From contig JAUXNU010000144.1 in assembly GCA_030682655.1 (NCBI GenBank), positions 27,991 through 91,990 on the forward strand: 64,000 nt of DNA, in the 5' to 3' direction. Below are positions 44,033-60,989 of this stretch, piece after piece. The stretch comes from Actinomycetota bacterium (lineage in GTDB: Bacteria; Actinomycetota; Coriobacteriia; Anaerosomatales; JAUXNU01). The stretch's first letter is position 1; each line of letters opens with the position of its first letter. The translations under genes were made by a program, and so were the position numbers. A model generated the notes under the pieces. That model did not search any database, had not been told where the DNA came from, and saw only the letters and a list, made by a program, of their open reading frames with translations.

Positions 44033-44051
44033 ATACCCCAGGGGGTATACT
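44033..44051 (+). promoter_or_regulatory. CsoR-type operator fused to a TATACT -10 hexamer, in the chelatase/trxA divergent region
   Basis: ATACCCCAGGGGGTATACT carries the inverted repeat ATACCCC/GGGGTAT. It is nearly identical to the site at 45401-45420 and resembles the B. subtilis CsoR copZA operator (TACCC-N4-5-GGGTA type). Confidence 0.6.
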
Positions 44052-44096
44052 TGATACGTACGCAGTATATGAGGACAGATCGTGAGGAGTAACTCC

Positions 44097-44426: not shown

Positions 44427-44431
44427 TAAGA

Positions 44432-44626: not shown

Positions 44627-44670
44627 GGATGAGCTAGGCCCTTCGGACGAAGGGCAGACGAGGCGGCTCT

Positions 44671-45042
44671 GTGGAATACGCCTACAAACGTGTTGGGACC
44701 ATGAACTTCACCAAGACGATCGAAGCCGTGGAGCGATCAGCTCGCGACCACGGCTTCGATGTGCTTCACTACCACGACATCACAGCGGCGCTCGCCGCCA
44801 AGGGGTTTCCGATTCGTCCGCTTGCGATCTTCGAGATCGCTCCTGCGGGCGTGGAGCTGGAAGTGCCGGTCTCCCTGCTCATGCCATGCCGGGTCAACGT
44901 TTACGAGCAGGATTCGGAAGTCGTCATCGCCGCGCTCCGGCCTACGCTCTTCAGTGCTGTCTACCCCGAGCACGGACTCGACGAGATAGCTCTCGAGTTC
45001 GAGAAGGCCGTGGTAGCGGTCGTGGACGGAGCGGTTGGCTGA
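44671..45042 (+). CDS. DUF302 domain protein
   Basis: Its size (about 120 aa) and pattern (..FTKTIEAVERSARDHGFDV..HDI......KG......AIFEI..P..) fit DUF302. Confidence 0.7.
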   Translation: MEYAYKRVGTMNFTKTIEAVERSARDHGFDVLHYHDITAALAAKGFPIRPLAIFEIAPAGVELEVPVSLLMPCRVNVYEQDSEVVIAALRPTLFSAVYPEHGLDEIALEFEKAVVAVVDGAVG

Positions 45043-45051
45043 CCGTTCCGT

Positions 45052-45348
45052 CTACTGGACGCACGACGAGTACTTGAGGAACACGGCGATTGCATCGTCG
45101 ATCAGCTCGTCCCGGGTCTTGTCAGTGTCATCGATCAGGCAGCGCTTCATCGAGTGCCCGATGATGTGCATCCCGACCTGATTGAGTGCCGACTTGGCCG
45201 CCATGATCTGGGTGAGGACGGCCTCACATTCCTTCTCGGACTCGATCATTGTCTGCAGGCCGCGAATCTGACCTTCGAGACGTTTGAGACGGTTGATGAT
45301 GCGCCGGCGCTCGCTGTCGTCGGGGATGGTTGCGGAGATGTCAGCCAT
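45052..45348 (-). CDS. CsoR/RcnR-family metal- or persulfide-sensing transcriptional repressor
   Basis: The sequence is RRRIINRLKRLEGQIRGLQTMIESEKECEAVLTQIMAAKSALNQVGMHIIGHSMKRC. I chose the start at MADIS (ATG, complement of 45348-45346). The 88-codon upstream extension in the ORF track is non-homologous. Confidence 0.85.
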   Translation of the reverse strand: MADISATIPDDSERRRIINRLKRLEGQIRGLQTMIESEKECEAVLTQIMAAKSALNQVGMHIIGHSMKRCLIDDTDKTRDELIDDAIAVFLKYSSCVQ

Positions 45349-45400
45349 TGGTCGCTCCCGGTCTTTGGATTGCGGTATTATTGGGCGTTGCCTGTAGGAT

Positions 45401-45420
45401 AATATACCCCCTGGGGGTAT
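45401..45420 (-). promoter_or_regulatory. CsoR-type operator fused to a TATATT -10, in the csoR/CDF divergent region
   Basis: The minus strand reads ATACCCCCAGGGGGTATATT. The plus-strand 17-mer ATACCCCCTGGGGGTAT (45404-45420) is a perfect palindrome. It lies 55 nt upstream of the csoR ATG and 25 nt upstream of the CDF ATG. Confidence 0.65.
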
Positions 45421-45444
45421 GCCACACAACCGTGCGGGAGAACC

Positions 45445-46392: not shown

Positions 46393-47350
46393 TCAACCCT
46401 CGCACGCCTGGAAGGGCTACGCTCTTGCCGTGTTGGCTGCTGCGAGCTGGGCCACCGGCGGGCTCACGGCGAAGTGGCTCTTCAGTCCGCTTGACGCCAC
46501 GACGTCGGCGTGGCCGCTTCCTCCACTCGGAATGCAGATCGATCCAGCCGTTCTGTCGGGAGCCCGTGCTCTGACGGCCTTTGCGTTGCTTGCCGCGTAT
46601 CTCGTGTTTCACAGACCGGGCGAGATCCGGGTGTCCATCCGGGAGGTGCCGTTTCTTGCCGTCTTCGGGGTCTTCGGTCTCGCGGCGGTCCACTTCACCT
46701 ACTTCAAGGCGATCTCCTACACGAACGTCGCCACGGCGATTCTGCTGGAGTACCTGGCGCCTGTGATCGTGTTGGTCTTCTCCGTGGCTTTCCTCGGTGA
46801 GCGTCTGACGTGGTCGCTCCCCGCCGGTGTGGCACTTTCGATAACGGGGTGTGCGTTGGTCGTGGGCGCAGCATCACCCGGTGGCATAGTCGTGTCGGTC
46901 CGGGGCGTCGCGTGGGGTCTGGCCGCCGCGGCGTTCTTCGCCCTTTACTCTCTCCTCGGAAAGCACGCCGCAGGGCGATTCTCGCCCTGGAGACTACTTG
47001 TCTTTGGGCTCGGGTTCGCGACGCTGTTCTGGGTCATCTACTTGCGCGGTGTCACCGCGATCTTCGGGGCCATGTCGTCTCCGGGCGGAGCAGCGTCAAT
47101 CGTGTACGTGGCGGTCGTGAGCACGATCGTTCCGTTCTCGGCTTTCCTCAAGGCGTTGCACTATATCGATGCAACCCGGGCGACTGTGACCGCCACTCTG
47201 GAGCCCGTGATAGCGGGAATCGCCGCATGGTTGCTCCTCGGCGAGACCTTCGACGGCACGCAGCTTGCCGGAGGCGCGTTCGTCATGTGCGCGATTCTGC
47301 TTGTTCAGCGCACGGGACACGCTAGGGAGTCGCTGCCGCCAGCCACGTAG
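46376..47350 (+). CDS. EamA/DMT-family transporter
   Basis: Ten TM helices form two EamA repeats. Its start overlaps the CDF gene by 17 nt. Confidence 0.8.
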   Translation: MPVSSDQPSHAWKGYALAVLAAASWATGGLTAKWLFSPLDATTSAWPLPPLGMQIDPAVLSGARALTAFALLAAYLVFHRPGEIRVSIREVPFLAVFGVFGLAAVHFTYFKAISYTNVATAILLEYLAPVIVLVFSVAFLGERLTWSLPAGVALSITGCALVVGAASPGGIVVSVRGVAWGLAAAAFFALYSLLGKHAAGRFSPWRLLVFGLGFATLFWVIYLRGVTAIFGAMSSPGGAASIVYVAVVSTIVPFSAFLKALHYIDATRATVTATLEPVIAGIAAWLLLGETFDGTQLAGGAFVMCAILLVQRTGHARESLPPAT

Positions 47351-47391
47351 GAGACCCGGTCCCGTGGGGCCGCGGCAAGGTCCGCGCAGAG

Positions 47392-47407
47392 TGGTATATA
47401 GTTTGCT
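47392..47407 (+). promoter_or_regulatory. promoter upstream of rpoN, readable as an extended -10 (TGGTATATA) or as a sigma-54 -24/-12 element (TGGTAT-N5-TTGCT)
   Basis: In TGGTATATAGTTTGCT the GG and GC are spaced exactly as in TGGCAC-N5-TTGC. The first 9 nt also match the TGnTAYACT housekeeping-type motif seen elsewhere in the window. Confidence 0.4.
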
Positions 47408-47463
47408 AGGGCGCGGTATTTCCTCGGCGCCCGCAGGTGCGGATCACCCCCCGGAGGAGCACC

Positions 47464-48861
47464 GTGGAGCTCGGTCAGCGACCAGAACTGCGACAGAAGG
47501 TCACCCTGTCGCCTCAGGTCTACCAGGGACTGAGTATTCTGGCGATGCCCATCGCCGATCTCGAGCTTCTCGTGGAGGCGGAGATGCTGGAGAATCCACT
47601 CCTCGAGGTCGACGAGCTCGAGTCGGAACCCGATGAGATGGAAGACGAGCGCGTGGAGTCGGCCGAGGAAGAACGAGCCTGGGACGATTGGCTCGAGATG
47701 TACGACGAGCTCGAGTCCATGGACACCTCGGCCCCCCGGGATCCCAATGCCGAAGCGCCCAATACCGAGGAGTACGTCGGCGGCGTTCTCTCATTCAGCG
47801 ACTACCTGATAGACCAGGTGGCACTACTCGATACTCCCGACGATGTCAGCCGTGCGGCGCGCGCAGTGATCGGCTTGCTTGATGGCGATGGTTTCTTCGA
47901 GGGGGATTGCGCGGAGATAGCCGCGCTCGCCGGTGTTTCGGGCGAGTCAGCGGAGCAGGGTCTTGGCGTCGTTCAACAACTCGATCCCCCCGGCGTCGGG
48001 GCCAGGAATGTGATCGAGGCCCTGATGATTCAATCGGCGTACCTGGGTCTTGAGGAGCCTCTGCTCGAGCGGCTGATCCGTTCGCATCTCGATGACGTCG
48101 CGGCGAGCCACTTCCGCAAGATCTCTCGTGCACTGCGTGTCGACGAGCGGGAGATATGGCGGCTCGTCGACGTGCTGAAGACATTGAACCCTCGTCCGGC
48201 AGGTGCGTTCTCGCCCGGCCCGTCGCCCGGGTACATCGTTCCGGACGTGACTCTGCGTCGCTTCGACGACGAGTGGCTCATCGTTTCGAACAACGAGTCC
48301 ATCCCGACCCTACGCGTCAGTCCGAAGTACCGCTCCATGTTGCGTTCCGGCTCAACAGCCGACGAAGACACCAGACGCTACCTTCGCGAGAAGATTCGGT
48401 CGGCCGAGAGCTTCATCAAGAACATCGACCGCCGCAAGGACACGGTGAGCAGGATCATCCGCATCATCCTGGAGGTTCAGGATGAGTTCTTCAAGGACGG
48501 TAGGGGCGATTTGAGGCCGTTGCGTCTCGAAGACGTGGCGGTCGAATTGGGGGTCCACCTCTCGACCGTCAGTCGTGGAGTGACGGCCAAGTACATGGCG
48601 ACCCCGTATGGGCTATTCGAGCTCAAGCACTTCTTCAGCGGTGGGTATCGGACGCGGCAAGGCGTAGATGTCTCTTCGACAAGCATCAAGCAGCACCTCA
48701 AGGGCATTGTGACCGCCGAAGACCCCAACCACCCGTTCTCGGATCAGAGACTCGCTGAGACGCTTTCCGACGAAGGCGTTCAGGTGGCTCGCAGGACGGT
48801 CGCGAAGTACCGGGAGGAACTCGGAATCGAGCCCTCGTGGGCGCGGAAGAGGCGACCGTGA
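47464..48861 (+). CDS. rpoN: RNA polymerase sigma-54 factor
   Basis: Region I (LRQKVTLSPQVYQGLSILAMPIADLELLVEAEMLENPLLEV), the HTH (LSTVSRGVTAKY) and the RpoN box (ARRTVAKYREELGI) are present. GTG 47464 lies 4 nt after GGAGGAG and was preferred over 47437. Confidence 0.9.
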   Translation: MELGQRPELRQKVTLSPQVYQGLSILAMPIADLELLVEAEMLENPLLEVDELESEPDEMEDERVESAEEERAWDDWLEMYDELESMDTSAPRDPNAEAPNTEEYVGGVLSFSDYLIDQVALLDTPDDVSRAARAVIGLLDGDGFFEGDCAEIAALAGVSGESAEQGLGVVQQLDPPGVGARNVIEALMIQSAYLGLEEPLLERLIRSHLDDVAASHFRKISRALRVDEREIWRLVDVLKTLNPRPAGAFSPGPSPGYIVPDVTLRRFDDEWLIVSNNESIPTLRVSPKYRSMLRSGSTADEDTRRYLREKIRSAESFIKNIDRRKDTVSRIIRIILEVQDEFFKDGRGDLRPLRLEDVAVELGVHLSTVSRGVTAKYMATPYGLFELKHFFSGGYRTRQGVDVSSTSIKQHLKGIVTAEDPNHPFSDQRLAETLSDEGVQVARRTVAKYREELGIEPSWARKRRP

Positions 48862-50396
48862 GCGAACCCACGACGACATTGAAGCCCGGTGCGGAGAATC
48901 CCAACGGAACCCGGAGGGCAACCCGCAACAGAGCGGTCCGTGCGGTTGGCCTTGTGGCCGCGATGCTTGTCGCCGTCACCGTGCTCCATCTCTTCACGGC
49001 TGTTAGCGGCGGCAACACCATGATTCATCTGCTCTACCGGCGGCTGTACTACATTCCGATTCTCTATGCGGCGTTCGTGTTCGGGAAGCGGGGTGGCCTT
49101 CTCGCGGCTCTTGGGGCCTCGACACCTTTCGCGCTGCACGCACAGGTGTCACTCGGTGGCTTGTTCGGGGCGCATGCGGATAACACGTATGAGGTGGTGA
49201 TGTACTTCGCCATGGGAGTGCTGTTCGGTACTCTTCGCGACATGGAGGAACGCAAGACTCACGACCTCCGACAGGTGAGTCTGCGCCTTGAGGATGCGTA
49301 CAAGAAGCTTGAGGAGCGCGCGATTCAGCTCATCAACATCCAGGACTACACGCAATCCATCCTGCGTTCGATCACCTCCGGTGTCTTGACGGTGGGTCCG
49401 GATGGATCTGTGACGACGGTGAACCCGGCTGCCGAGCGCATGCTGGGCATCTCCGAGTACGAGATGGTTCCCAAGCCGATCGGCGCCGTCCTGAAGGACG
49501 ACGGGGGGTTGTCCGCCGATGTCGAGAAGGTGCTGTCAGGACGCCTTCCCCTGACGTTGCGGGAGGTCAAGGTTGTCACGCAGTCTGACAAGACCATTCA
49601 TGTCCAGGCTTCCACCTCCCGTATGCGCGCCGTCGGAGGTCGCATCCTTGGCGCCGTTGTGACTGTCGAAGACATCTCGGAGGTCAAGAGCCTCACGGAG
49701 CAGCTGATCCGTGCCGACCGTCTGGCGGCAATGGGTGAGTTGACAGCGGGCGTGGCTCACGAGGTGCGCAACCCCCTCGGGATCATCCGGGCGTCCGTAC
49801 AGCTTCTCGAAGAGAGCAAGTGCGACGAGGACCGAATCCGTGAGGCTGCCGGCGTGATCAAGCAGGAGATCGATCGGTTGGACAAGGTGATCAAGGCCTT
49901 GCTGGACTTCGGGAGGCCGAGCAAGCCGACGTTCGTCGAGACCGATGTCGAGAGCGTGCTGAGTGATGTGGTTCTCTTCACCAAGCGGTTTGCGAAACAG
50001 GCTGACGTGGCGATCGAAGAGCACTTCTCGGCCAGCCTCCCTCTTGTCCATGCCGATCCCGATCAGTTGAAGCAGGTGTTCCTGAATCTCGTGACCAATG
50101 CAGTCCAGGTAATGGAGGAATCCGGGGGGACTATCGCAATCGAGACTGGCCATGTGCCGGGCTACGTCTTCGTCACCGTGTCAGATACCGGGCCCGGCAT
50201 TTCGGAAGCATCCCTCGGCAAGGTGTTCGATCCCTTCTTCTCCACGCGCGACGAAGGCACCGGTCTTGGACTGACGATGGTACACAGAATCATCGACGAG
50301 CATGATGGGCATATCGAAGTGGGGAGCGGGTCAGACGGAACCGTGTTTCGCGTGTCACTTCCCGTGGCGGCCCACAACGACATTGATGAGGAGTGA
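48858..50396 (+). CDS. sensor histidine kinase (membrane domain - PAS - HisKA - HATPase), NtrB/AtoS-like
   Basis: It has the H-box GVAHEVRNPLG, the N-box LNLVTNAVQ, and G-boxes DTGPGI and GTGLGL. GTG 48858 overlaps the rpoN stop; GTG 48837 is an alternative start. Confidence 0.85.
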   Translation: MSEPTTTLKPGAENPNGTRRATRNRAVRAVGLVAAMLVAVTVLHLFTAVSGGNTMIHLLYRRLYYIPILYAAFVFGKRGGLLAALGASTPFALHAQVSLGGLFGAHADNTYEVVMYFAMGVLFGTLRDMEERKTHDLRQVSLRLEDAYKKLEERAIQLINIQDYTQSILRSITSGVLTVGPDGSVTTVNPAAERMLGISEYEMVPKPIGAVLKDDGGLSADVEKVLSGRLPLTLREVKVVTQSDKTIHVQASTSRMRAVGGRILGAVVTVEDISEVKSLTEQLIRADRLAAMGELTAGVAHEVRNPLGIIRASVQLLEESKCDEDRIREAAGVIKQEIDRLDKVIKALLDFGRPSKPTFVETDVESVLSDVVLFTKRFAKQADVAIEEHFSASLPLVHADPDQLKQVFLNLVTNAVQVMEESGGTIAIETGHVPGYVFVTVSDTGPGISEASLGKVFDPFFSTRDEGTGLGLTMVHRIIDEHDGHIEVGSGSDGTVFRVSLPVAAHNDIDEE

Positions 50397-50399
50397 CAA

Positions 50400-51749
50400 A
50401 TGAAGCAGCGCGTGCTGATCGTCGATGACGAGAAGAACATGCGTTGGGTGCTCGCCCAAGCGCTGGAGGCGGTGGGTTTCGATGTGGGCCAGGCCGCGGA
50501 CGGCAAGGAAGCGCTCGCAGCCGTAGCGGACCAGGAGCCAGACATAATGGTGCTCGACCACCGCATGCCCGCTCCCGACGGCATGGAGGTGCTGCGCCGT
50601 TTGCGCGCCGAGGGCAGGACGTTCCCCGTCATCATGCTGACGGCGCATGGCAACGTGGCCACGGCAGTAGACGCGATGAAGGCCGGCGCCAACGAGTACC
50701 TGACGAAGCCGTTCGATCTCGAGGAGCTAAAGCTCGCCATCGAGAAGGCTCTCAGGTTGAGTACCCTCGCCGCCGAGGTCGAAAGGCTGCGAGAGGAGCT
50801 GGATCGCGAGTACGATGTCGAGGGCATCGTCGCTGCAGACGAACGCATGACCGGTGTTCTCGAGACGGTCCAGCGCGTTGCGCCGACCAGTGCGACGGTG
50901 ATGATCTATGGCGAGTCGGGTACCGGCAAGGAGTTGGTGGCCCGCGCGATACATGCTCTGTCCGAGCGCTCATCCAAGCCCTTCGTGTCGGTGAGCGCTG
51001 GCGCGCTTCCCGAGACACTCCTCGAAAGCGAGCTCTTTGGATTCGAGAAGGGGGCATTCACCGGCGCGATCACCGCCAAACCGGGTCGATTCGAACTCGC
51101 GAACAGTGGGACGCTGTTCCTCGACGAGGTCGGTGACATCCCTCCGTCGGTGCAGGTCAAGCTGCTTCGCGTGCTCCAGGAGCGGCAATTCGAGCGCCTC
51201 GGCGGTACGCGCACGATCGAGGTGGACGTGCGGGTAGTAGCTGCGACCAATCGCGACCTGCAGCAGCTCATCGCCGAGGACATGTTCCGCGAAGACCTCT
51301 TCTACCGGCTTAACGTCGTGCCGGTCACCCTTCCGCCCCTGCGCAAGCGTCCGGGAGACATTGCGCCGCTGGTCGCGCATTTCCTCGACAAGTACAACGC
51401 GGGTAGCCGAACCATCTCAAGTGAGGCGATGGAGGCAATGGCGGCGTACCAGTGGCCGGGTAATGTGCGCGAACTGGAGAACACGATCGAGCGGATACTG
51501 ATTCTGGCTCATGGTGACGAGATCGGTATCGGAGACTTGCCAGCAGAAGTGAGACTGGGCTCCATCGCGTGCGACAGGTCGGCAGTCGGAATCGTGCTGC
51601 CAGAAGACGGATGCAGCCTGGAAGAGGTCGAGCTAGACCTCATCCGTCAGGCGCTTGACCGTAGCGGCGGGGCCGCTCCGAAGGCGGCGAAACTATTGGG
51701 GCTGACCACCAAGACTCTTGAGGCCCGGATGGCGCGCCTGGGGTTGTGA
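50400..51749 (+). CDS. sigma-54-dependent response regulator (REC - AAA+ - Fis-type HTH), NtrC family
   Basis: It has a REC Asp (IMVLDHRMP), Walker A (GESGTGKE), the GAFTGA loop (EKGAFTGAI), Walker B (LFLDEVG) and a C-terminal HTH (AAKLLGLTTKTLEARM). Confidence 0.92.
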   Translation: MKQRVLIVDDEKNMRWVLAQALEAVGFDVGQAADGKEALAAVADQEPDIMVLDHRMPAPDGMEVLRRLRAEGRTFPVIMLTAHGNVATAVDAMKAGANEYLTKPFDLEELKLAIEKALRLSTLAAEVERLREELDREYDVEGIVAADERMTGVLETVQRVAPTSATVMIYGESGTGKELVARAIHALSERSSKPFVSVSAGALPETLLESELFGFEKGAFTGAITAKPGRFELANSGTLFLDEVGDIPPSVQVKLLRVLQERQFERLGGTRTIEVDVRVVAATNRDLQQLIAEDMFREDLFYRLNVVPVTLPPLRKRPGDIAPLVAHFLDKYNAGSRTISSEAMEAMAAYQWPGNVRELENTIERILILAHGDEIGIGDLPAEVRLGSIACDRSAVGIVLPEDGCSLEEVELDLIRQALDRSGGAAPKAAKLLGLTTKTLEARMARLGL

Positions 51750-52195
51750 TGCGCGCGACTGCCGTTCCCGTTTCTTGGCACACGCCTTGCAACTCCAGTG
51801 CTGACAGCTCGATGAACCGGGAAATCGTGGACCGCATACACCTCACACGAACGTACCTTCTTGCACCGATAGCAGTCGTCGCCACGGCGGCCGCCGCCGC
51901 GTTAGTGATCGCCATCGAGACGGGCGGCGGGATCGGTGGCTGTACGTCAACTGCTGCATTCCGGTGGTTCGTGCCGCTGCTTGCTGCTGCGGTGATCGGC
52001 GGAGTAGCGATCATGCTGCTCGAGGGCTCTCCTTCCGAGTCCGCTTCCACCGACACGCTGCAATCGGGCACGTGCGCGGTCTGCGGTTCGGCAATCATGG
52101 ATGAGTGGAAGCTCTGTCCGCATTGCGGTGCGCTTCTTGAGTGCGATGTCAGGATGCCGCTGACGGGCGCCGGATACGGAGAGCGCGAGAACTGA
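51746..52195 (+). CDS. two-TM membrane protein with C-terminal zinc-ribbon (CxxC..CxxC)
   Basis: GTG 51746 overlaps the regulator stop; ATG 51812 is an alternative start. The zinc-ribbon segment is CAVCGSAIMDEWKLCPHCG. Confidence 0.5.
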   Translation: MMRATAVPVSWHTPCNSSADSSMNREIVDRIHLTRTYLLAPIAVVATAAAAALVIAIETGGGIGGCTSTAAFRWFVPLLAAAVIGGVAIMLLEGSPSESASTDTLQSGTCAVCGSAIMDEWKLCPHCGALLECDVRMPLTGAGYGEREN

Positions 52196-52202
52196 GCCGA
52201 TC

Positions 52203-53360
52203 GTGGATGTATTCCTGCTCATGCTCGGTCTGGGACTTGTGACGAGCGTCCACTGCGTTGCGATGTGTGGAACCCTTGTGGCGACCTATGCGCTCAAGGA
52301 AGGCTCCTCAGGGCGAGTCTCACAGGGCATGACACCTCACCTGGTGTACCAGTCCGCAAAGATCCTCAGCTACGTCCTCGTGGGCTTGATTCTTGGCACA
52401 TTGGGTGAAGTCTTCGACCTGGCCGGGGTGCGCGGATGGGTGCAACTTGCCGCTGGCCTCTTCATGGTGTTGCTCGGCATCAACATGCTGGGCCGGTTCC
52501 CGCTGCTCAGGAAGCTCGCCCTGAGAACCCCGCGTGCCGTGACTGCGGCGCTCGTGCGCACGCGCAAGAAGGCCTTGGCCGAGGAGAGAGAAGACTCCCA
52601 CAACCTCGTCACGCCCGCGACCTTCGGCCTACTGACAGGCCTGATGCCCTGCGGGCCCTTGCAGGCAGCGCAGTTGTCGGCCGCAGCAACCGGTAGCGCC
52701 TTGTCGGGAGCCACAGCGATGCTCGGCTTCGGCCTCGGCGCTGCACCCTTGATGCTGGCGTTCGGCCTGGGGTCCGGCTACCTGGGATCGGCATTCAAGA
52801 AGCGTATGACTGCGGTTGCGGCCATTGCGATCATCGTGCTCGGGCTGGTGATGTTCAATCGCGGATCCATGTTGGTCGGGTCACCCTTGACGCTCCGAGC
52901 CGCGAAGCAGGCCGTCATGGGTTCGGCGGCCCGGACCGAGGCGAGTCCTGAGTATCGCGCAGGCGCCGACGGCGTCATCGAGATCGATCTGGTCATCCAG
53001 AACACCCGGTTCGTGCCCGAAACAGTCTCGGTCCCGGTTGACCGTCCGTTCAGGCTCGTCGTGGAACGCCGGGAAGACGGTGCGTGCTCCGACCAGATCG
53101 CTGTTCCGCAGGTCGGCATCCTGGCAGACCTGGCGCCCAACGGCGTCACGGCTGTCGAGTTTCCGCCAATGGGATCCGGTGCGTACACTTTGACCTGCGG
53201 AATGGGGATGATGTCCGGCAGGATCTTGGCCGGTGATGCTGCTGCCGAGGTCACGGGAACGCCGATTGTGGGCATAGCACTAGGAGCGCTACTCGTCGGC
53301 ATCTTCGGCTACGCCGCAAGTCGCAAGACACGGCCGCGAGATGGCGCGGCGCTAGGTTGA
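52203..53360 (+). CDS. DsbD_2/UreH-like membrane domain fused to a cupredoxin_1-like domain
   Basis: The membrane motifs SVHCVAMCG and GLMPCGPL are followed by the C-terminal segment IQNTRFVPETV..AYTLTCGMGMMSGRI and a final TM helix. Confidence 0.65.
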   Translation: MDVFLLMLGLGLVTSVHCVAMCGTLVATYALKEGSSGRVSQGMTPHLVYQSAKILSYVLVGLILGTLGEVFDLAGVRGWVQLAAGLFMVLLGINMLGRFPLLRKLALRTPRAVTAALVRTRKKALAEEREDSHNLVTPATFGLLTGLMPCGPLQAAQLSAAATGSALSGATAMLGFGLGAAPLMLAFGLGSGYLGSAFKKRMTAVAAIAIIVLGLVMFNRGSMLVGSPLTLRAAKQAVMGSAARTEASPEYRAGADGVIEIDLVIQNTRFVPETVSVPVDRPFRLVVERREDGACSDQIAVPQVGILADLAPNGVTAVEFPPMGSGAYTLTCGMGMMSGRILAGDAAAEVTGTPIVGIALGALLVGIFGYAASRKTRPRDGAALG

Positions 53361-53372
53361 TCGCCACGGAGT

Positions 53373-53388
53373 TGGCACTTGGTTCGCA
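53373..53388 (+). promoter_or_regulatory. sigma-54 (-24/-12) promoter upstream of copZ
   Basis: Compared with the consensus TGGCAC-N5-TTGCW, TGGCACTTGGTTCGCA has a perfect -24 hexamer, correctly spaced GG/GC and one mismatch in the -12 element. It lies in the 85-nt gap before copZ. The implied TSS is about 48 nt upstream of ATG 53446. Confidence 0.6.
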
Positions 53389-53445
53389 ACGCGTTACACC
53401 TGCATGTTCGACGTGCTGTCGGCAGCGATGCGGAGGAGAACGACT

Positions 53446-53667
53446 ATGGCTGAACTGACCGAGGCAAGACTCATGACGACCGGGCTTCACTGCCGGTCAT
53501 GCTCCATGCTTGTAGACATGACCGTTGGGGATCTCGACGGCGTCGATAGCGTCAGCACGGACTACGTGACAGGTGCGACCGACGTGATGTTCGATTCGGA
53601 TGTGGTGACAACCGAAGATATCGTGGCTGCGATACGGTCGGCGGGCTATGACGTTGACGATGCCTAG
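53446..53667 (+). CDS. copZ: heavy-metal-associated (HMA) domain metallochaperone, CopZ-like
   Basis: The 73-aa protein has the CxxC motif in GLHCRSCS and a ferredoxin-like HMA pattern (..VD.V.GV.SV........V.FD......I..AI..AGY). ATG 53446 follows GGAGGAG. Confidence 0.8.
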   Translation: MAELTEARLMTTGLHCRSCSMLVDMTVGDLDGVDSVSTDYVTGATDVMFDSDVVTTEDIVAAIRSAGYDVDDA

Positions 53668-54221
53668 AGAATCCGAAGCGGACATGACTGGGCATTCCTA
53701 CACAACGGGCTCCCGCAGAAAGTACCTACTGGTGGGCGCGCTCGCCCTGTTGGCGTTTGTCGGCGCATATGGCGTGGCCTCGGCCACCAGCAGGACGCCC
53801 GACCCCTCGGTAGCTGTCGCCGGTGTGGGGCAGAGCACAGGGGCGGGTCAGGGGGCTGGGGCAGGTCAGGGGGCTGGGGCAGGTCAGGACGGCGGAGCGT
53901 GCGGCGGGGAGTGCTGCGGCACGGGGGGCGTCGAAACCGAGGGCTCGGCTGCAGTCTCGGATGGTGTGCAGCGAATACAAGTCGATGTGTCGGCCGGCTT
54001 CTTCGATCCGACCGTCATTCGCGCGCAGGCCAGGGTACCCCTGGAGATTTCATTCGGTGAGGGATCCGGCTGTTTGGCGGAGGTGCACTCTCCCCAGCTG
54101 GGTGTATTTCGAGGATCTCACTCGCGGTGGCGCCACCGTCAATCTGAAGGCGCTTGACCCCGGCACGTATGGCTTCTCGTGCGGCATGGAGATGGCGTCC
54201 GGTACGCTGGTGGTCGAATAG
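53648..54221 (+). pseudogene. membrane-anchored cupredoxin_1-like protein, interrupted by a +1 frameshift at TTT 54107-54109
   Basis: One frame encodes a TM anchor, a Gly-rich linker and ..VQRIQVDVSAGFFDPTVI..GCLAEVHSPQLGV, ending at 54157. The +1 frame continues FEDLTRGGATVNLKALDPGTYGFSCGMEMASGTLVVE to 54221. The joined sequence aligns with the cupredoxin domain of the 52203 gene (ACSDQIAVPQVGILADL..YTLTCGMGMMSGRI). Confidence 0.6.
53840..53887 (+). repeat. in-frame tandem repeat encoding (GAGQ)(GAGAGQ)x2
   Basis: The 18-nt unit GGGGCTGGGGCAGGTCAG is perfectly duplicated (53852-53869 and 53870-53887), preceded by a 12-nt partial copy. Confidence 0.85.
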
Positions 54222-54230
54222 GGGGCGGCA

Positions 54231-56864
54231 ATGTCCGAAGAGACTTCGGCGCGCGCTGATGCGCGTGACGAGACCGCTCCCCACGATGGTGAGGAGAGCG
54301 TCGATTTCGCCGTCACAGGCATGACGTGTGCCTCATGCGCGGCCGTGATCGAGAAGACCCTGGCCAAAACGGAGGGGGTCGATTCTGCTGCAGTCAACCT
54401 TGCTGCGGAGAGACTGCGGGTCACATTCGACCCGACCAGGATCGACATCGATGAGATCGTTTCGCAGGTAGAGAGTGCCGGCTACGGAGCCACTAGCATG
54501 TCCAAGGCCGTGGCTTCCCCTGCGACCGGGCACGTGGACCTGGTGGTCACAGGGATGACCTGCGCTTCGTGCAGCGCCGTCATCGAGAAATCGCTCGACA
54601 AGGTCGACGGTGTCTCGGCGGCGGTTGTGAACCTGGCTCGGGAAAGTGCATCCGTCGATTTCGATCCGGTGATCGTCGGGCCGGAAGAGATCATCTCTGC
54701 AGTCATCGCTGCCGGATACGGAGCGGAGCTCAAGACGGAGAGCGTTGTCGGTGCCGGTGTGGAGGCAGACGCACAGAGTGCCGCGCAGCGCGCGTTCTAT
54801 CAGCATCAGCGTAACCTGCTCGTGTTCTCCGCCACCCTCTCCATTCCTCTGCTCTTTGTGGCCATGGTGCCGCCGTTCATGGAGGCGATTCCGACATGGA
54901 TCGCCTCGATATTCGGGATCTCGGGCGAGTCCGGCGTCATGATGGTTCACAAGTACATCATGCTGGTGCTCGCCACCCCTGTGCAGTTCTACGCCGGCGC
55001 ACAGTACTACCGTGGGTTCTGGCATGCACTGAAGCGACGCACCGGCAACATGGACACGCTGGTTGCGATCGGAACGACCGCCGCGTTCGCGTACAGCGTG
55101 GCGGCCACATTCTGGATAACCGAGCAGCCCGCGTTCTACGAAACGAGCGCATTGCTCATCACATTCGTTCTCCTTGGCAAGATGCTTGAGGCGCGGGCCA
55201 AAGGTCGCACGGGGGACGCGATCAAGAAGCTCATGGGACTTGCGGCCAAGACGGCGCGCGTTGTGCGCGGCGGGGAGGAACTCGACGTTGCCGTGGAGCA
55301 GGTCGTGGTGGGCGATATCGTCATCGTCCGGCCGGGCGAGAAGGTCCCTGTCGATGGTGTACTGACCGAGGGCGGGTCCTCGGTCGACGAATCGATGCTG
55401 ACGGGCGAGTCCATACCCGTTGAGAAGAACCCCGGAGACACGGTCATCGGTGCGACGCTGAACAAGCTCGGCTCGTTCAGGATGCGGGCCACCAAGGTCG
55501 GCCGGGACACCGCCCTCGCGCAGATCATCCGACTCGTCGAGGAAGCGCAGGGCTCCAAGGCCCCGGTGCAACGGTTCGCGGATCGCATCAGTGCGGTGTT
55601 CGTCCCCGCAGTCGTCGGGACGGCGCTTGCGACGTTTCTGTTCTGGCTGATCGCAGGACCGGTCATCTTTGGCGCAGCACCCGATCCCGCAGCCTACGCG
55701 ACGGTGTTGCACCCGATACTGAGGGCTGCGGCCGGCAGCGGGTGGTTCGTGGCTGCGCTTCTCGCGGGCACAGCGGCCGTGGTCATCGCGTGTCCATGCG
55801 CTCTCGGGCTCGCGACGCCGACGGCCATCATGGTCGGAACCGGGAAGGGCGCCGAGAACGGCGTGCTCATCAAGAGCGGCGAAGCCCTCGAGACGGCGTA
55901 TCGAATCGATGCCATCGTCTTCGACAAGACCGGCACACTGACCCACGGGCAGCCCAAGGTGACCGATGTCGTAGCCCTCGATTCCGAGGACCCCACACGG
56001 ATTCTGGAGCTGGCCGCCTCTCTCGAGCGCTCGAGCGAGCATCCCCTGGCCGAGGCCATAGTGGGGCATGCGAATGACACCGGAGTTGCAGTGCACCCCG
56101 TGATCTCCTTCTCCGCGATACCCGGGCATGGCGTGGCGGGCGAGGTAGATGGAACGCGGGTCGTACTCGGCAATCGCAAGCTCATGGAGCGCGAGGCCCT
56201 CGCGTGCGACTCGTGCGAGCGCGAGATCGCGGAGCTTGAGTCGCAGGGCAAGACCGTGATGATCGTTGGGATCTCGGGAGTCCGGCCGGTGGGACTCATC
56301 GCCGTTGCCGACACGCTGAAGGAGCACTCCAAGCCCGCAGTTGCGCGCCTGCGTGAGATGGGTGTGGAGGTCTACATGATCACGGGCGACAACCGGACGA
56401 CGGCACAGGCTGTTGCCCTGCAGGCCGGAATCTCCTCGGATCACGTTCTCGCTGAAGTGCTTCCCGAGGACAAGGCGACGAGAGTCGCAGCTCTGCAGAG
56501 CCAAGGACTGCGAACCGCGATGGTCGGCGACGGCATCAACGATACACCGGCACTTGCCCAGGCCGATGTCGGCATCGCGATGGGCGCGGGCACGGATGTT
56601 GCCATGGAGACGGGCGGCATCGTGCTCATCAAGAACGATCTTCGCGATGTGGTGACCGCCATCGAGCTGTCTCGCGCGACGATGCGCAAGATCAAGTCGA
56701 ACTTCGTCTGGGCGCTCGGCTACAACACACTGGGCATTCCTGTGGCGGCGATAGGCCTGCTCTCGCAGTTCCCGTGGCTTGCTGGGGCTGCGATGGCGTT
56801 TTCCAGCGTCAGCGTCGTGACGAACTCCTTGCTGCTACGCCGATTCCGTCCCTCCATGCGATAA
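54231..56864 (+). CDS. copA: copper-translocating P1B-type ATPase
   Basis: It has two N-terminal HMA domains (GMTCASC twice), TGES, the CPC motif ([11 protein letters not shown]), DKTGTLT, HP (SEHPLA) and [10 protein letters not shown]. Confidence 0.95.
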
Positions 56865-56918
56865 CAGGACAGCCGCCGCTCTGGGATATCATCAGGAAGA
56901 CCTCATGAAGGGAACCGC

Positions 56919-57644
56919 ATGGAGAATTCCGTTGGACTAGCTGCTGCTTTTGCAGCCGGTCTCGTCTCGTTTCTTTCGCCGTGCGTCCTTCCGCTGATTC
57001 CGGCATACATCTCATTCATCACCGGGATGTCCGCTTCGGAACTGGCCAAGGAGAGAGCGCCGCTCCGTGTGGTACTCGCACCGAGCCTGTTGTTCGTTGC
57101 CGGGTTCTCGCTGGTGTTTGTCGCATTGGGCGCTTCTGCATCCCTTTTGGGTGCGTTTCTGGTGGCGTACCGGCTGCTGCTGGTGAGAATCGCTGGCGGA
57201 GCGCTGTTGGTACTCGGATTCTTCATGCTCGGTGTCATAGAGGTGCCCTGGCTGTATGGCGAGGCGCGATTCGAGATGGGGAAGGCCCGCGCTTTCGGTC
57301 GTGGCGCGGCGCTGGTCATGGGCATGGCCTTCGCGTTCGGTTGGACGCCGTGCGTCGGGCCGATTCTGGGCTCGATTCTCGCCGTAGCCGGCTCGTCCGG
57401 AAGCGTTGGTACTGGCGTTCTTCTGCTCTCCGCGTACTCTCTGGGTCTCGGAGTCCCCTTTGTCTTGGTGGCGTTGCTGTTCGGTAAGCTGGGGGGCACA
57501 CTGCGTTGGCTTGGCCGGCACTCCTTGGCCATCAACAGGGTGGCGGGAGCGGTGCTGATCGCGGTCGGCGTTCTTATGATCACCGGCCGACTCGGAGTAC
57601 TGTCCGGATGGCTCTCAACCGTGCTGCCATCCGTCGGATTGTAG
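56919..57644 (+). CDS. ccdA: cytochrome c biogenesis / thiol-disulfide electron transfer protein CcdA (DsbD family)
   Basis: Six TM helices carry the motifs LSPCVLPLIPAYISF and FGWTPCVGPILG. Confidence 0.85.
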   Translation: MENSVGLAAAFAAGLVSFLSPCVLPLIPAYISFITGMSASELAKERAPLRVVLAPSLLFVAGFSLVFVALGASASLLGAFLVAYRLLLVRIAGGALLVLGFFMLGVIEVPWLYGEARFEMGKARAFGRGAALVMGMAFAFGWTPCVGPILGSILAVAGSSGSVGTGVLLLSAYSLGLGVPFVLVALLFGKLGGTLRWLGRHSLAINRVAGAVLIAVGVLMITGRLGVLSGWLSTVLPSVGL

Positions 57645-57721
57645 GAGCGCTTTGTCCCCCGGCTCCGGGGCGGTACGATTGGAGCAGTGACCTGAGGGGC
57701 GGCAGGAGCAACGGTGTGAGG

Positions 57722-60970: not shown

Positions 60971-60989
60971 TACGCGTGAAGTGAGCAGG

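What the first reader, a model, noticed from the sequence alone, without database searches (positions are those of the whole stretch)
47392..57644. Complete sigma-54 regulatory module placed directly upstream of a copper/thiol-handling operon, in an actinobacterial-type synteny context
**Seen:**
- rpoN (region I, HTH, RpoN box), a PAS histidine kinase and an NtrC-type activator with an intact GAFTGA loop form one tightly packed, overlapping gene string.
- A zinc-ribbon membrane protein and a DsbD_2-cupredoxin fusion follow.
- After an 85-nt gap holding a -24/-12 promoter come copZ, a second cupredoxin protein, copA (2 HMA domains, CPC, DKTGT) and ccdA.

**Established:**
- Copper efflux operons of Gram-positives are normally derepressed by CsoR or CopY.
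- Sigma-54 is generally reported as absent from Actinobacteria.
- amt-glnK-glnD and uvrC-rapZ-yvcK-whiA-gap-pgk-tpi-secG are the typical actinobacterial arrangements.

**Inference:** This lineage may control copper (or extracytoplasmic thiol/metal) stress through enhancer-dependent transcription, with rpoN itself carried in the locus. I cannot verify taxonomy or novelty from the window.
Basis: partly seen in the sequence, partly recalled or inferred. Interest (0 to 1): 0.75.

Follow-up and report, generated by a model that had tools for sequence, protein, structure and literature searches.

The report
Sigma-54 copper module in an actinobacterium
An uncultured actinobacterial lineage, from a phylum said to lack sigma-54, carries a complete sigma-54 gene with its own sensor kinase and activator, followed by conserved sigma-54 promoters in front of copper-handling genes.

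Summary
All the genes named are present: rpoN, a PAS kinase, an NtrC-type activator with GAFTGA, a Zn-ribbon protein, a DsbD_2-cupredoxin fusion, copZ, a second cupredoxin gene, copA and ccdA. The -24/-12 site in the 85-nt gap before copZ (P2) is real.

- **P1.** A perfect sigma-54 promoter, TGGCACacgccTTGCA, lies at 51776-51791 just after ntrC. It is present in all 24 related loci that cover this region.
- **P0.** A third sigma-54-like site lies before rpoN.
- **cup2.** The second cupredoxin gene carries a +1 frameshift.
- **CsoR.** A CsoR-family repressor with two palindromic operators sits just upstream.

The contig is Actinomycetota, class Coriobacteriia, apparently order Anaerosomatales. 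The whole locus is syntenic in more than 20 independent assemblies. A short form lacks copA and the fusion; a long form matches the window.

Both cupredoxin domains are homologues of the pneumococcal Cu(I) chaperone CupA and keep its copper ligands. A Clostridial relative pairs a homologous kinase and activator with a sigma-54 promoter and the same gene set.

Published surveys (2011, 2025) state that Actinomycetota lack a functional sigma-54. Sigma-54 control of copper genes is already known in Myxococcus (CorSR). I rate this a new variant of a known kind in an unexpected phylum. All evidence is computational.

The parts
47392..47407 (+). P0: sigma-54-like site TGGTATatagtTTGCT, 57 nt upstream of the rpoN start codon. 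It may also act as an extended -10 promoter.
   Evidence: TGGTAY-N5-TTGCW is kept at the same position in 19 loci, and as CGGTAT in three more. It stays intact where the TATA-like core is replaced by TACGGC or TACGTA.
47464..48861 (+). rpoN (sigma-54), 465 aa
   Evidence: Pfam AID 3.5e-12, CBD 1.3e-45, DBD 9.6e-56. RpoN box ARRTVAKYR. 100% identical to an NCBI MAG protein labelled Actinomycetota. More than 100 homologues at 72-91% identity in Coriobacteriia or Anaerosomatales MAGs.
48837..50396 (+). Sensor histidine kinase: N-terminal membrane domain of 3-4 helices (weakly DUF4118/MASE1-like), then PAS, HisKA and HATPase
   Evidence: Best NCBIfam hits are AtoS and ZraS, both below cut-off.
50400..51749 (+). 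NtrC-type enhancer-binding response regulator (REC, AAA+ with GAFTGA, HTH_8)
   Evidence: Pfam Sigma54_activat 9e-71, Response_reg 1.8e-33, HTH_8 1.7e-11. Sequence motifs. Orthologues at 73-81% identity in 16 GTDB species representatives; the next best hits are about 50%.
51776..51791 (+). P1: perfect sigma-54 promoter TGGCACacgccTTGCA, 27 nt after the ntrC stop codon
   Evidence: Only perfect match in 64 kb; 0.04 expected. Present in all 24 related loci that cover the region. TGGCA and TTGCA are the only invariant columns of the intergenic alignment.
51812..52195 (+). Membrane protein with a C-terminal CxxC...CxxC zinc ribbon (start ATG 51812 or GTG 51831); first gene after P1
   Evidence: Weak Zn_ribbon hits. 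It holds the same position in all relatives, and in Clostridial locus L021 behind a sigma-54 promoter.
52203..53360 (+). DsbD_2 (six helices) fused to a CupA-like cupredoxin domain (about 52965-53228), plus a C-terminal helix
   Evidence: Pfam DsbD_2 3.2e-44, Cupredoxin_1 2.8e-11. PDB CupA 2MRY/4F2E at 1.8e-9, with C...CGMxM ligands kept. Present only in long-form loci.
53373..53388 (+). P2: sigma-54 promoter TGGCACttggtTCGCA, 58 nt before the copZ start codon
   Evidence: The same TGGCAY-N5-TCGCA lies before copZ in L004, L005, L084, L086 and L093.
53446..53667 (+). copZ-type HMA metallochaperone (motif HCRSC)
   Evidence: Pfam HMA 1.1e-12. NCBIfam CopZ-type hits below cut-off. Conserved in all relatives.
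53660..54221 (+). cup2: membrane-anchored CupA-like cupredoxin protein, interrupted by a +1 frameshift (extra T at 54107-54109)
   Evidence: The repaired protein hits Cupredoxin_1 at 4.8e-12 and PDB CupA at 1.4e-7, with ligands kept. It is intact in L004, L014, L084, L086 and L088.
54231..56864 (+). copA: P1B-1 Cu(I) P-type ATPase with two N-terminal HMA domains
   Evidence: Pfam. TIGR01511 at 610.7 bits against a cut-off of 397. CPC, N-x6-YN-x4-P, M-x2-SS-x5-N and DKTGT are read directly from the sequence. Five of five sampled homologues lie in the same locus.
56919..57644 (+). ccdA (DsbD_TM thiol-disulfide electron transporter)
   Evidence: Pfam 4.4e-17. Cysteines in SPCVLP and TPCVGP. The 54-nt gap after copA has no CsoR operator, unlike many relatives.
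45052..45348 (-). CsoR/RcnR-family metal-sensing repressor (flanking second regulon)
   Evidence: PF02583. NCBIfam RicR, FrmR and RcnR hits below cut-off. C41, H61, H65 and C70.
45404..45420 (.). CsoR-type operator ATACCCCCTGGGGGTAT between csoR and the CDF-EamA genes that precede rpoN
   Evidence: 0.00 expected. Conserved in relatives.
44033..44048 (.). Second CsoR-type operator ATACCCCAGGGGGTAT, upstream of thioredoxin (44097-44426)

Best explanation
This is a chromosomal, vertically inherited locus of the Anaerosomatales branch of Coriobacteriia (Actinomycetota). A complete sigma-54 system sits next to the genes it most likely controls.

**Proposed mechanism**
1. rpoN, a membrane-embedded PAS histidine kinase and an NtrC-type activator form one operon.
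2. On a still unidentified signal, the kinase phosphorylates the activator. The signal is most plausibly Cu(I)/Ag(I) excess, or the thiol damage it causes at the membrane.
3. The activator uses ATP to open sigma-54 RNA polymerase complexes at two promoters:
   - P1, driving the Zn-ribbon protein and the DsbD_2-CupA-like fusion;
   - P2, driving copZ, the cupA-like cup2, copA and ccdA.
4. The products then do the following:
   - chaperone cytoplasmic Cu(I) (CopZ);
   - export it (CopA, a P1B-1 ATPase);
   - bind or reduce copper on CupA-like Cys/Met sites, which I predict face outward;
   - keep those thiols reduced (DsbD_2 domain and CcdA, fed by thioredoxin).
5. A sigma-54-type site before rpoN (P0) suggests autoregulation.
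6. A neighbouring CsoR-family repressor controls thioredoxin and the CDF-EamA genes that read towards rpoN. In many relatives it also controls ccdA. Two metal/thiol regulons are therefore interleaved.

**Shown:** gene identities, motif integrity, promoter conservation, synteny and taxonomy.

**Inferred:** which activator serves which promoter, the inducing signal, protein topology, the electron path and the sign of autoregulation.
For: **The machinery is intact**
- Sigma-54 and the activator have all their domains and motifs.

**The promoters are conserved**
- P1 is perfect and is the only invariant element of an otherwise unconserved intergenic region in 24 of 24 loci.
- P2 recurs in 6 loci with the same TCGCA variant.
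- The pattern gives 49 hits in 477 kb, all at the three homologous positions and none elsewhere.
- No sigma-70 consensus promoter was found in 47200-58000.

**The locus is native to the lineage**
- Synteny covers both the short and the long form, including contigs of 1.2-2.7 Mb.
- The module's GC (0.627) matches the window's (0.637).
- WhiA and RpoN homologues appear to sit on the same contigs, judging by matching contig lengths in the two hit lists.

**The cargo is copper**
- copA carries the P1B-1 signature motifs and passes the TIGR01511 cut-off.
- Both cupredoxin domains match CupA and keep residues equivalent to C74, C111, M113 and M115.
- The CupA paper left open which electron donor re-reduces CupA's cysteines, naming thioredoxin as a candidate. 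Here DsbD_2, CcdA and thioredoxin are adjacent.

**Independent associations**
- In Pseudobacteroides cellulosolvens a DUF4118-PAS kinase and an NtrC (49% identity) lie next to a sigma-54 promoter. Behind it come a Zn-ribbon protein, an HMA-DsbD_2-cupredoxin fusion and copA, with ccdA and a thioredoxin-like gene alongside.
- Locus L090 has rpoN-HK-NtrC plus a perfect sigma-54 promoter before a cupredoxin_1 gene.

**Precedent**
- Myxococcus CorSR is a sigma-54-dependent system that regulates a cupredoxin_1 gene, cuoA and copA.
Against: - There are no transcript, start-site or binding data; everything is comparative.
- No enhancer (UAS) motif shared by the three promoters was found.
- The kinase's membrane domain has no conserved Cys/His/Met cluster that would indicate direct copper sensing.
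- The short-form loci lack copA and the fusion, so the ancestral regulon may not be copper export as such.
- P2 has a C at -14 and is missing from some long-form loci, L088 and L089.
- P0 could be an extended -10 sigma-70 promoter in about half of the loci (L090).
- cup2 is frameshifted in this genome.
Confidence: 0.75

Rival explanations
1. The module responds to envelope thiol/disulfide or general membrane stress rather than to copper. Copper genes were added later to a pre-existing sigma-54 regulon consisting of the Zn-ribbon protein, an HMA protein and, where it lacks its own CsoR operator, CcdA.
For: - Short-form loci (L002-L018) have only ZnR-HMA-(cup2)-CcdA behind P1.
- The kinase has no obvious metal ligands in its membrane domain and carries a cytoplasmic PAS domain.
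- CcdA, DsbD_2 and thioredoxin are redox components.
- A CsoR-family sensor already sits in the locus.
Against: - An HMA CxxC chaperone is in the core of every locus.
- Every sampled lineage copA homologue (5 of 5) is in this locus.
- The CupA-like domains keep their Cu(I) ligands.
- The Clostridial counterpart also includes copA.
- Copper stress and thiol stress are mechanistically linked, so the two readings overlap.
Confidence: 0.2
2. Sigma-54 in this lineage is a general sigma factor with a broad regulon and several activators. Its position next to this kinase-activator pair and the copper genes is a conserved accident of gene order, not a dedicated module.
For: - In most bacteria rpoN serves many activators.
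- I could not survey whole genomes for other activators.
- Only about 2-3% of a genome was examined.
Against: - No other sigma-54-type site occurs in the 64 kb window or in 477 kb of related loci. This includes the amt-glnK-glnD nitrogen genes, which are typical sigma-54 targets elsewhere.
- rpoN is joined to the kinase by an overlap or a short gap (33 nt at most in the loci read) in the loci held.
- The distant L090 lineage keeps rpoN-HK-NtrC.
- A broad regulon would not contradict control of P1 and P2 by this module.
Confidence: 0.35
3. copZ-copA is mainly controlled by the adjacent CsoR-family repressor or by a housekeeping promoter. The -24/-12 matches are non-functional relics or chance.
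For: - The CsoR-family gene and its operators lie within 2-3 kb.
- Relatives have an operator directly before ccdA.
- Actinobacterial sigma-70 promoters are poorly captured by the consensus scan.
Against: - No CsoR operator lies anywhere between ntrC and ccdA in the window.
- The -24 and -12 blocks are invariant while their flanks drift across 24 loci.
- The chance expectation is 0.04 for P1.
- rpoN and the activator are under evident purifying selection, at 72-91% and 73-81% identity across species.
Confidence: 0.05
4. The locus is a recent horizontal transfer or an assembly/binning chimera from a Firmicute or a proteobacterium. In that case 'sigma-54 in Actinomycetota' is an artefact.
For: - The nearest outgroups of RpoN (40-43%) and of the activator (about 50%) include Bacillota.
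- One relative is labelled Eubacteriales.
Against: - rpoN lies on the same contig as whiA, gap, pgk and uvrC.
- Identical synteny occurs in more than 20 independent assemblies.
- The GC content is the same as the surrounding window.
- RpoN divergence (72-77%) roughly parallels WhiA divergence (76-88%) in hit lists that share many contig lengths.
- An independent Logan assembly is identical over 17 kb.
- An ancient transfer into the order's ancestor remains possible and does not make the finding an artefact.
Confidence: 0.03

Closest known systems
Myxococcus xanthus CorSR / curA operon (PMC3707914)
   Same: - A two-component system whose response regulator is a sigma-54-dependent NtrC-type activator.
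- It sits inside a copper-induced cluster that holds a Cupredoxin_1 (PF13473) protein and a CopA P1B ATPase.
- The cluster has several internal -24/-12 promoters.
   Different: - CorS has a periplasmic sensor and a HAMP domain. The kinase here has a DUF4118-like membrane domain and a PAS domain.
- rpoN is not part of the Myxococcus cluster.
- That operon has a multicopper oxidase and no CopZ, DsbD_2 or CcdA.
- The host is a diderm deltaproteobacterium rich in sigma-54 activators.
- Orthology of the regulators was not tested.
Streptococcus pneumoniae copY-cupA-copA and the CupA Cu(I) chaperone (PDB 4F2E/2MRY; PMC5646241)
   Same: - Both cupredoxin domains here match CupA, and cup2 also clearly matches the CopA N-terminal domain 4F2F (1.2e-6; the fusion's match, 0.084, is marginal).
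- They keep the ligands C74, C111, M113 and M115.
- They are membrane-anchored and encoded next to copA.
   Different: - Regulation there is by the CopY repressor, not sigma-54.
- One copy here is fused to a DsbD_2 membrane domain. By the positive-inside rule both copies are predicted to face outward (inference), whereas CupA hands Cu(I) to the cytoplasmic domain of CopA.
- CopA here has classical HMA domains, and a CopZ is also present.
E. coli ZraPSR (zinc-responsive sigma-54 two-component system)
   Same: - A kinase plus an NtrC-type activator turn on a small envelope-stress or metal operon from sigma-54 promoters.
- The first target gene may be an accessory protein.
- ZraS and ZraR are among the better NCBIfam hits.
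   Different: - Scores are far below the equivalog cut-offs (200 against 479, and 386 against 760).
- The sensor architecture differs and there is no ZraP homologue.
- The targets here are copper, CupA-like and thiol-transfer genes.
CsoR-regulated copZA operons of Gram-positive bacteria
   Same: - A copZ-copA pair.
- A CsoR-family repressor with GC-tract palindromic operators in the neighbourhood.
   Different: - In the window the operators lie before thioredoxin and the CDF transporter, not before copZ or copA.
- copZ-copA is instead preceded by sigma-54 promoters.
Single-activator sigma-54 systems (Borrelia Rrp2-RpoN, Chlamydia CtcBC-sigma-54), as mentioned in PMC3162934
   Same: Possibly a sigma-54 that serves one activator and a small regulon.
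   Different: - To my knowledge rpoN there is not contiguous with its activator and its target operon.
- Whether this lineage has a single activator is untested.

Membership tests
Sigma-54 (RpoN) | Three regions: activator-interacting region I, core-binding domain, and DNA-binding domain with HTH and RpoN box | tested here: met
   Pfam AID 46.4 bits, CBD 155.9 bits and DBD 188.4 bits, all above cut-off. ARRTVAKYR is present.
Sigma-54 (RpoN) | Binds -24 GG / -12 GC promoters and needs an ATP-dependent activator for open-complex formation | not testable with these tools
   Only indirect support: conserved GG-N10-GC promoters next to the gene.
Bacterial enhancer-binding protein, NtrC (response-regulator) class | Receiver domain with acidic pocket and phospho-acceptor Asp; AAA+ domain with Walker A/B and the GAFTGA loop; C-terminal HTH_8 | tested here: met
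   - Pfam Response_reg, Sigma54_activat, AAA_lid_14 and HTH_8.
- DDEK, VLDHRMP, GESGTGKE, LFLDEVG and GAFTGA read from the sequence.
- No NCBIfam equivalog cut-off is reached; AtoC, NtrC and ZraR all fall below.
Sigma-54-dependent promoter | TGGCAC-N5-TTGCW with GG and GC exactly one helical turn apart, in an intergenic region on the coding strand | tested here: met
   P1 has 0 mismatches, P2 has 1 and P0 has 2. Position and core are conserved across 24, 6 and 19 loci respectively.
Sigma-54-dependent promoter | Upstream activator-binding sites (enhancer), and a start site about 12 nt downstream of GC | tested here: inconclusive
   No shared upstream motif was found. The start site cannot be tested here.
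P1B-1 Cu(I)/Ag(I) P-type ATPase (CopA) | CPC in the metal-binding helix; N-x6-YN-x4-P; M-x2-SS-x5-N/S; DKTGT; N-terminal HMA CxxC domains | tested here: met
   - The motifs [37 protein letters not shown] and two GMTCASC are read from the sequence.
- TIGR01511 scores 610.7 against a cut-off of 397.
CupA-type cupredoxin Cu(I) chaperone | Cupredoxin fold with a binuclear Cu(I) site formed by one Cys plus C-x-M-x-M, and a membrane anchor | tested here: met
   - phmmer against PDB 2MRY/4F2E gives 1.4e-7 (cup2) and 1.8e-9 (fusion).
- The aligned ligands are conserved.
- The fold was not modelled, and copper binding is untested.
CopZ metallochaperone | Ferredoxin-like domain of about 70 aa with a CxxC motif in the first loop | tested here: met
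   Pfam HMA at 48.5 bits. The motif is HCRSC. NCBIfam CopZ models are below cut-off.
CcdA / DsbD transmembrane electron transporter | Six-helix core with one essential Cys in each of two PC-containing helices | tested here: met
   DsbD_TM at 62.5 bits. SPCVLP and TPCVGP are present.
CsoR/RcnR family repressor (neighbouring regulon) | PF02583 fold, a Cys/His/Cys-type ligand set, and a GC-tract inverted-repeat operator | tested here: inconclusive
   - PF02583 is present.
- C41 and C70 are spaced as in CsoR, but the His is offset by one residue. This rests on my recollection of the M. tuberculosis CsoR sequence.
- Operators ATACCCC-N-GGGGTAT are present.
- The metal sensed is unknown.
Myxococcus CorSR system | Orthology of kinase and regulator; periplasmic sensor plus HAMP; copper induction | not tested
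   Only a functional analogy from the paper. From the domain lists, the kinase architectures clearly differ.

The most novel reading that the evidence does not exclude
In Anaerosomatales, sigma-54 is a 'private' sigma factor. rpoN, one kinase, one activator and their copper/thiol operon would form a self-contained cassette. It would be autoregulated through P0 and primed by read-through from a CsoR-controlled promoter. It would have been acquired anciently as a unit from a Firmicute-like donor and be the only sigma-54 regulon in the genome. Sigma-54 would then be used like an ECF sigma factor for a single stress response, in a 63% GC actinobacterium. That would contradict the proposal that high GC content excludes sigma-54 from the phylum.
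Probability: 0.3. Interest if true: 0.8.

Novelty: new variant of a known kind. Interest (0 to 1): 0.62.

Why it matters
**It contradicts published surveys.** A 2011 survey and a 2025 survey both conclude that Actinomycetota lack a functional sigma-54. The 2025 paper attributes this to high GC content. Here a whole order-level lineage at about 63% GC keeps an intact rpoN and activator, plus promoters that stand out cleanly from the background. In 477 kb the pattern gives no hits away from the three sites. This counters both the distribution claim and the GC argument.

**It offers a compact natural module.** Sigma factor, sensor, activator, promoters and targets lie within 10 kb. That makes the system attractive for reconstitution and for asking how a sigma-54 system becomes established in a new phylum.

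**It suggests an answer to an open point in copper biology.** The electron donor that re-reduces CupA's cysteines is unknown. Here CupA-like domains are fused to a DsbD-like membrane domain or encoded next to CcdA and thioredoxin. This points to a thiol-reductant pathway that can be tested directly.

**The same logic occurs in a cultivable organism.** Pseudobacteroides cellulosolvens (Clostridia) has the same kinase, activator and target arrangement, so experiments are feasible there.

Tried and rejected
- **Enhancer search.** I enumerated gapped palindromes and shared 7-mers upstream of P0, P1 and P2 across loci, and ran an inverted-repeat search in the window. Only a coding-region palindrome in the ntrC 3' end turned up (AGGTC-N6-GACCT, in 9 of 17 loci). 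Nothing was shared among the promoters.
- **Sigma-70 promoters and terminators, 47200-58000.** No promoter and no convincing terminator was found.
- **Rfam, 43000-62000.** No known RNA family.
- **CsoR control of copZ/copA.** No operator lies between ntrC and ccdA in the window, so I rejected this for the window. An operator does sit before ccdA in many relatives.
- **Recent horizontal transfer or chimera.** Rejected on GC content, synteny, an identical independent assembly and RpoN and WhiA hit lists that share contig lengths.
- **Metal ligands in the kinase membrane domain.** None is conserved.
- **Naming the RpoN outgroups and finding cultured carriers.** The clusters carry no taxon names. 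Context identified one outgroup as Firmicute-like.
- **Literature on sigma-54 in Coriobacteriia, OPB41 or Anaerosomatales, and on PF13386.** Nothing relevant was found.
- **Other activator homologues at about 50% identity (64 loci in other phyla).** Only two Clostridial loci have convincing copper genes nearby; one further locus (L043) shows a weak CopA-like match.
- **Census of activators per genome.** This was not possible with the capped tools.

Full report
**1. What is in the sequence**

The + strand between 47.4 and 57.6 kb carries a tight gene string, confirmed with Pfam. It holds these genes:
- rpoN, 47464-48861. All three sigma-54 domains are present, and the RpoN box ARRTVAKYR is visible.
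- A histidine kinase, 48837-50396. It has an N-terminal membrane domain of 3-4 helices that is weakly DUF4118/MASE1-like, followed by PAS, HisKA and HATPase.
- An NtrC-type activator, 50400-51749. It has REC, an AAA+ domain with GAFTGA, and HTH_8.
- A small membrane protein ending in a CxxC...CxxC zinc ribbon, 51812 or 51831 to 52195.
- A DsbD_2 + Cupredoxin_1 fusion, 52203-53360.
- An HMA chaperone, copZ, 53446-53667.
- A second cupredoxin gene, cup2.
- copA, 54231-56864.
- ccdA, 56919-57644, with both PC-motif cysteines.

copA carries the P1B-1 signature. CPC, N-x6-YN-x4-P, M-x2-SS-x5-N, DKTGT and two GMTCASC domains are read. It also passes the TIGR01511 cut-off.

One correction concerns cup2. 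It is split between two frames by an extra T in GTATTTCGAG, at 54107-54109. Removing that T restores a Cupredoxin_1 protein (4.8e-12). Orthologues are single ORFs of 174-177 aa. The frameshift is identical in an independent Logan assembly of run SRR13727541.

**2.

A consensus scan found a perfect sigma-54 promoter, TGGCACacgccTTGCA, at 51776-51791. It lies 27 nt after the ntrC stop codon and just before the Zn-ribbon gene. It is the only perfect match in 64 kb, against 0.04 expected. I call it P1, and the copZ site P2.

A third element, TGGTATatagtTTGCT at 47392-47407 (P0), lies 57 nt before the rpoN start codon.

With the pattern TGGYAY-N5-TYGCW, which I derived after seeing the sites, these three are the only hits in the window on either strand. 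0.26 hits are expected, and 0 of 100 shuffles reach 3. No such site precedes amt-glnK-glnD, which are typical sigma-54 targets in other phyla.

**3. Taxonomy and conservation**

RpoN, CopA and WhiA of the window are each 100% identical to proteins of one NCBI MAG labelled Actinomycetota (contig of 97 kb). More than 100 RpoN homologues at 72-91% identity all come from MAGs labelled Coriobacteriia, Anaerosomatales or Actinomycetota.

WhiA homologues at 76-88% identity come from hit lists that share many contig lengths with the RpoN list. The module's GC (0.627) equals that of the window (0.637). NCBI taxonomy places Anaerosomatales in Coriobacteriia, Actinomycetota.

A scan of GTDB species representatives with the activator found 16 orthologous loci at 73-81% identity. 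Identity then drops to about 50% in Bacillota, Acidobacteriota and Desulfobacterota.

tblastn mapping and gene calls show one conserved order: DUF302, csoR (- strand), CDF, EamA, rpoN, kinase, ntrC, Zn-ribbon, [DsbD_2-cupredoxin], copZ, [cup2], [copA], ccdA, HAMP-GAF-GAF-PP2C, STAS-HATPase. Two forms exist:
- A short form without the fusion and copA (L002-L018).
- A long form identical to the window (L084, L086/87, L088/89, L092, L093).

All five copA homologues I sampled (67-73% identity) lie in the long-form locus. Being wired behind rpoN is therefore the normal position of copA in this lineage where it is present.

**4. Promoter footprints**

| Site | Loci where it is kept | Source |
|---|---|---|
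| P1 | All 24 loci that cover the ntrC 3' flank (TGGCAY-N5-TTGCA) | |
| P2 | 6 loci, always with the TCGCA variant, 38-61 nt before copZ in the four with measured spacing | |
| P0 | 19 loci as TGGTAY-N5-TTGCW, and CGGTAT in three more | |

In an alignment of 12 P1 regions, TGGCA and TTGCA are the only invariant columns. The flanks and the spacer drift, with 53% mean identity.

Across 25 loci (477 kb, both strands) the pattern gives 49 hits. All are on the coding strand at these three positions, and none lies elsewhere. This is the strongest evidence that the sites are functional.

P0 is ambiguous. In about half of the loci it also reads as an extended -10 promoter (TGnTATAnT). A distant lineage (L090) has a plain TGGTAGAAT before its rpoN. 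On the other hand, TTGCT is kept at a fixed distance even where the core is TACGGC or TACGTA. I read P0 as a sigma-54 binding site that may overlap a housekeeping promoter. Positive or negative autoregulation cannot be decided here.

**5. What the products do**

Sequence search of the PDB shows that both cupredoxin domains are homologues of Streptococcus pneumoniae CupA (2MRY/4F2E), at 1.4e-7 for cup2 and 1.8e-9 for the fusion. cup2 also clearly matches the cupredoxin-like N-terminal domain of pneumococcal CopA (4F2F, 1.2e-6); the fusion's match to it is marginal (0.084). The binuclear Cu(I) ligands are conserved: one Cys plus C-G-M-x-M, equivalent to C74, C111, M113 and M115 (ligand roles from PMC5646241).

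That paper leaves open which electron donor re-reduces CupA's cysteines and mentions thioredoxin as a candidate. In this locus one CupA-like domain is fused to a DsbD_2 membrane domain. The operon ends with CcdA, and thioredoxin lies 3 kb upstream.

By the positive-inside rule, both CupA-like domains should face outward. This is my inference from the sequences.

Together with CopZ and a P1B-1 CopA, the cargo is very probably Cu(I), possibly also Ag(I).

**6. A second regulon in the same place**

In fact a CsoR/RcnR-family gene lies at 45052-45348 on the - strand. Two near-perfect operators are present, with 0.00 expected by chance:
- ATACCCCCTGGGGGTAT at 45404-45420, between csoR and the CDF-EamA genes that read towards rpoN.
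- ATACCCCAGGGGGTAT at 44033-44048, before thioredoxin.

In many relatives a third operator lies directly before ccdA. The window has only a 54-nt copA-ccdA gap and no operator there. In L092 the CDF-EamA genes are missing, and the operator lies 94 nt upstream of P0.

No operator lies before copZ or copA. Copper export therefore appears sigma-54-dependent, while thioredoxin, the CDF transporter and often ccdA are CsoR-type targets. Read-through from the CsoR-controlled promoter could supply basal rpoN expression. That last point is speculation.

**7. Relatives outside the lineage**

A search of 50%-identity representatives puts the lineage's RpoN in its own cluster. The next best hits are only 40-43% identical. 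Two of them could be placed by context:
- The 43% hit (L090, GC 64%, taxon unknown) again has rpoN-kinase-ntrC. It also has a perfect sigma-54 promoter before a small ORF and a Cupredoxin_1 gene.
- A 40% hit has the Firmicute arrangement rpoN-cggR-gap-pgk-tpi-pgm-eno.

In Pseudobacteroides cellulosolvens (Clostridia, L021), a DUF4118-PAS kinase and an NtrC (49% identity) lie beside ccdA and a thioredoxin-like gene. A sigma-54 promoter (TGGCATgattcTTGCT) follows. Behind it come a Zn-ribbon membrane protein, an FtrD-like protein, an HMA-DsbD_2-Cupredoxin_1 fusion and copA.

The sensor, activator and target set is therefore older than the actinobacterial lineage and is shared with Firmicutes. What is special here is the host phylum and the physical attachment of rpoN.

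**8. Comparison with what is known**

Francke et al. 2011 state that Actinobacteria lack the sigma-54 system. [quoted passage not shown] The paper describing Anaerosomatales does not mention sigma factors. Searches combining sigma-54 with Coriobacteriia or OPB41 found nothing relevant.

Sigma-54/NtrC-type control of copper genes is, however, known. Myxococcus CorSR regulates a cupredoxin_1 gene, cuoA and copA from putative -24/-12 promoters.

The finding is therefore not a new kind of mechanism. It is a new variant of a known kind, with three new features:
- A new phylum for sigma-54.
- rpoN in cis with its activator and targets.
- A new target set: CupA-like domains with DsbD-type partners.

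**9. Limits**

- Everything is comparative, and no start sites or expression data exist.
- No enhancer motif was found.
- The signal sensed by the kinase is unknown, and its membrane domain has no conserved metal ligands.
- I could not count activators per genome, so I cannot say whether sigma-54 is dedicated to this regulon.
- No cultured carrier was identified.

**10. Verdict**

| Item | Verdict |
|---|---|
| Observation | Confirmed, with four additions: P1, P0, the cup2 frameshift and the CsoR regulon |
| Confidence in sigma-54-dependent, two-component-activated control of a copper-handling operon in an Anaerosomatales genome | 0.75 |
| Novelty | New variant of a known kind |
| Interest | 0.62 |

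Noticed in passing
window 54101-54116 (extra T at 54107-54109): The cupA-like gene cup2 carries a +1 frameshift in a TTT run. The frameshift is identical in the NCBI MAG and in a Logan assembly of SRR13727541. Orthologues are intact. It is either a pseudogene or a shared sequencing error.
   Followed up: partly
window 44033-44048 and 45404-45420; relatives e.g. L002 14914, L084 12660, L088 12941: CsoR-type palindromic operators (ATACCCC-N0-3-GGGGTAT) lie before thioredoxin and between csoR and the CDF-EamA genes. Many relatives have a third operator directly before ccdA. This defines a CsoR-family regulon interleaved with the sigma-54 regulon.
   Followed up: partly
window 57608-61775 (+), and 35953-38394 (-): A HAMP-GAF-GAF-PP2C (SpoIIE-type) phosphatase and a STAS-HATPase fusion follow ccdA in every relative, as in partner-switching modules. 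A second MASE3-PAS-GAF-PP2C gene lies 10 kb upstream on the other strand. Their relation to the metal locus is unknown.
   Followed up: no
window 6164-10145 (- strand): amt-glnK-glnD are present, but no sigma-54-type site lies near them. Nitrogen genes do not appear to belong to the sigma-54 regulon in this organism.
   Followed up: partly
L021 6302-17341 (Pseudobacteroides cellulosolvens): A Clostridial counterpart of the module. It has a double-Zn-ribbon gene, a DUF4118-PAS kinase, NtrC, divergent ccdA and a thioredoxin-like gene. A sigma-54 promoter at 11134-11149 is followed by a Zn-ribbon protein, an FtrD-like protein, an HMA-DsbD_2-cupredoxin fusion and copA. I did not find it described in the literature searched.
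   Followed up: partly
L090 1750-1765 and 7602-11073: A high-GC (64%) contig of unknown taxon has rpoN (43% identity)-kinase-ntrC. It also has a perfect sigma-54 promoter before a 128-aa ORF and a Cupredoxin_1 gene. This may be a second lineage with the same logic.
   Followed up: partly
window 51620-51645: A palindrome, GGAAGAGGTCGAG/CTAGACCTCATCC, lies inside the 3' end of ntrC, about 170 nt upstream of the predicted P1 start. The AGGTC-N6-GACCT core is kept in 9 of 17 loci. It could be an enhancer or only a by-product of the coding sequence LEEVELDL.
   Followed up: partly
window 44445-44625: A small ORF between thioredoxin and DUF302 encodes a CxxC...CxxC zinc-ribbon peptide that looks FmdB-like. 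I read it by eye only.
   Followed up: no
window 18357-21395, 14589-16481, 1094-3290: Several long ORFs gave no Pfam match at 1e-5. They may be wrong-frame ORFs in GC-rich DNA or genuinely unassigned genes.
   Followed up: no
L092 2044-2600: In one relative the CDF and EamA genes are missing. csoR is then directly divergent from rpoN, with the CsoR operator 94 nt upstream of P0. This hints that CsoR-controlled transcription can feed rpoN expression.
   Followed up: partly
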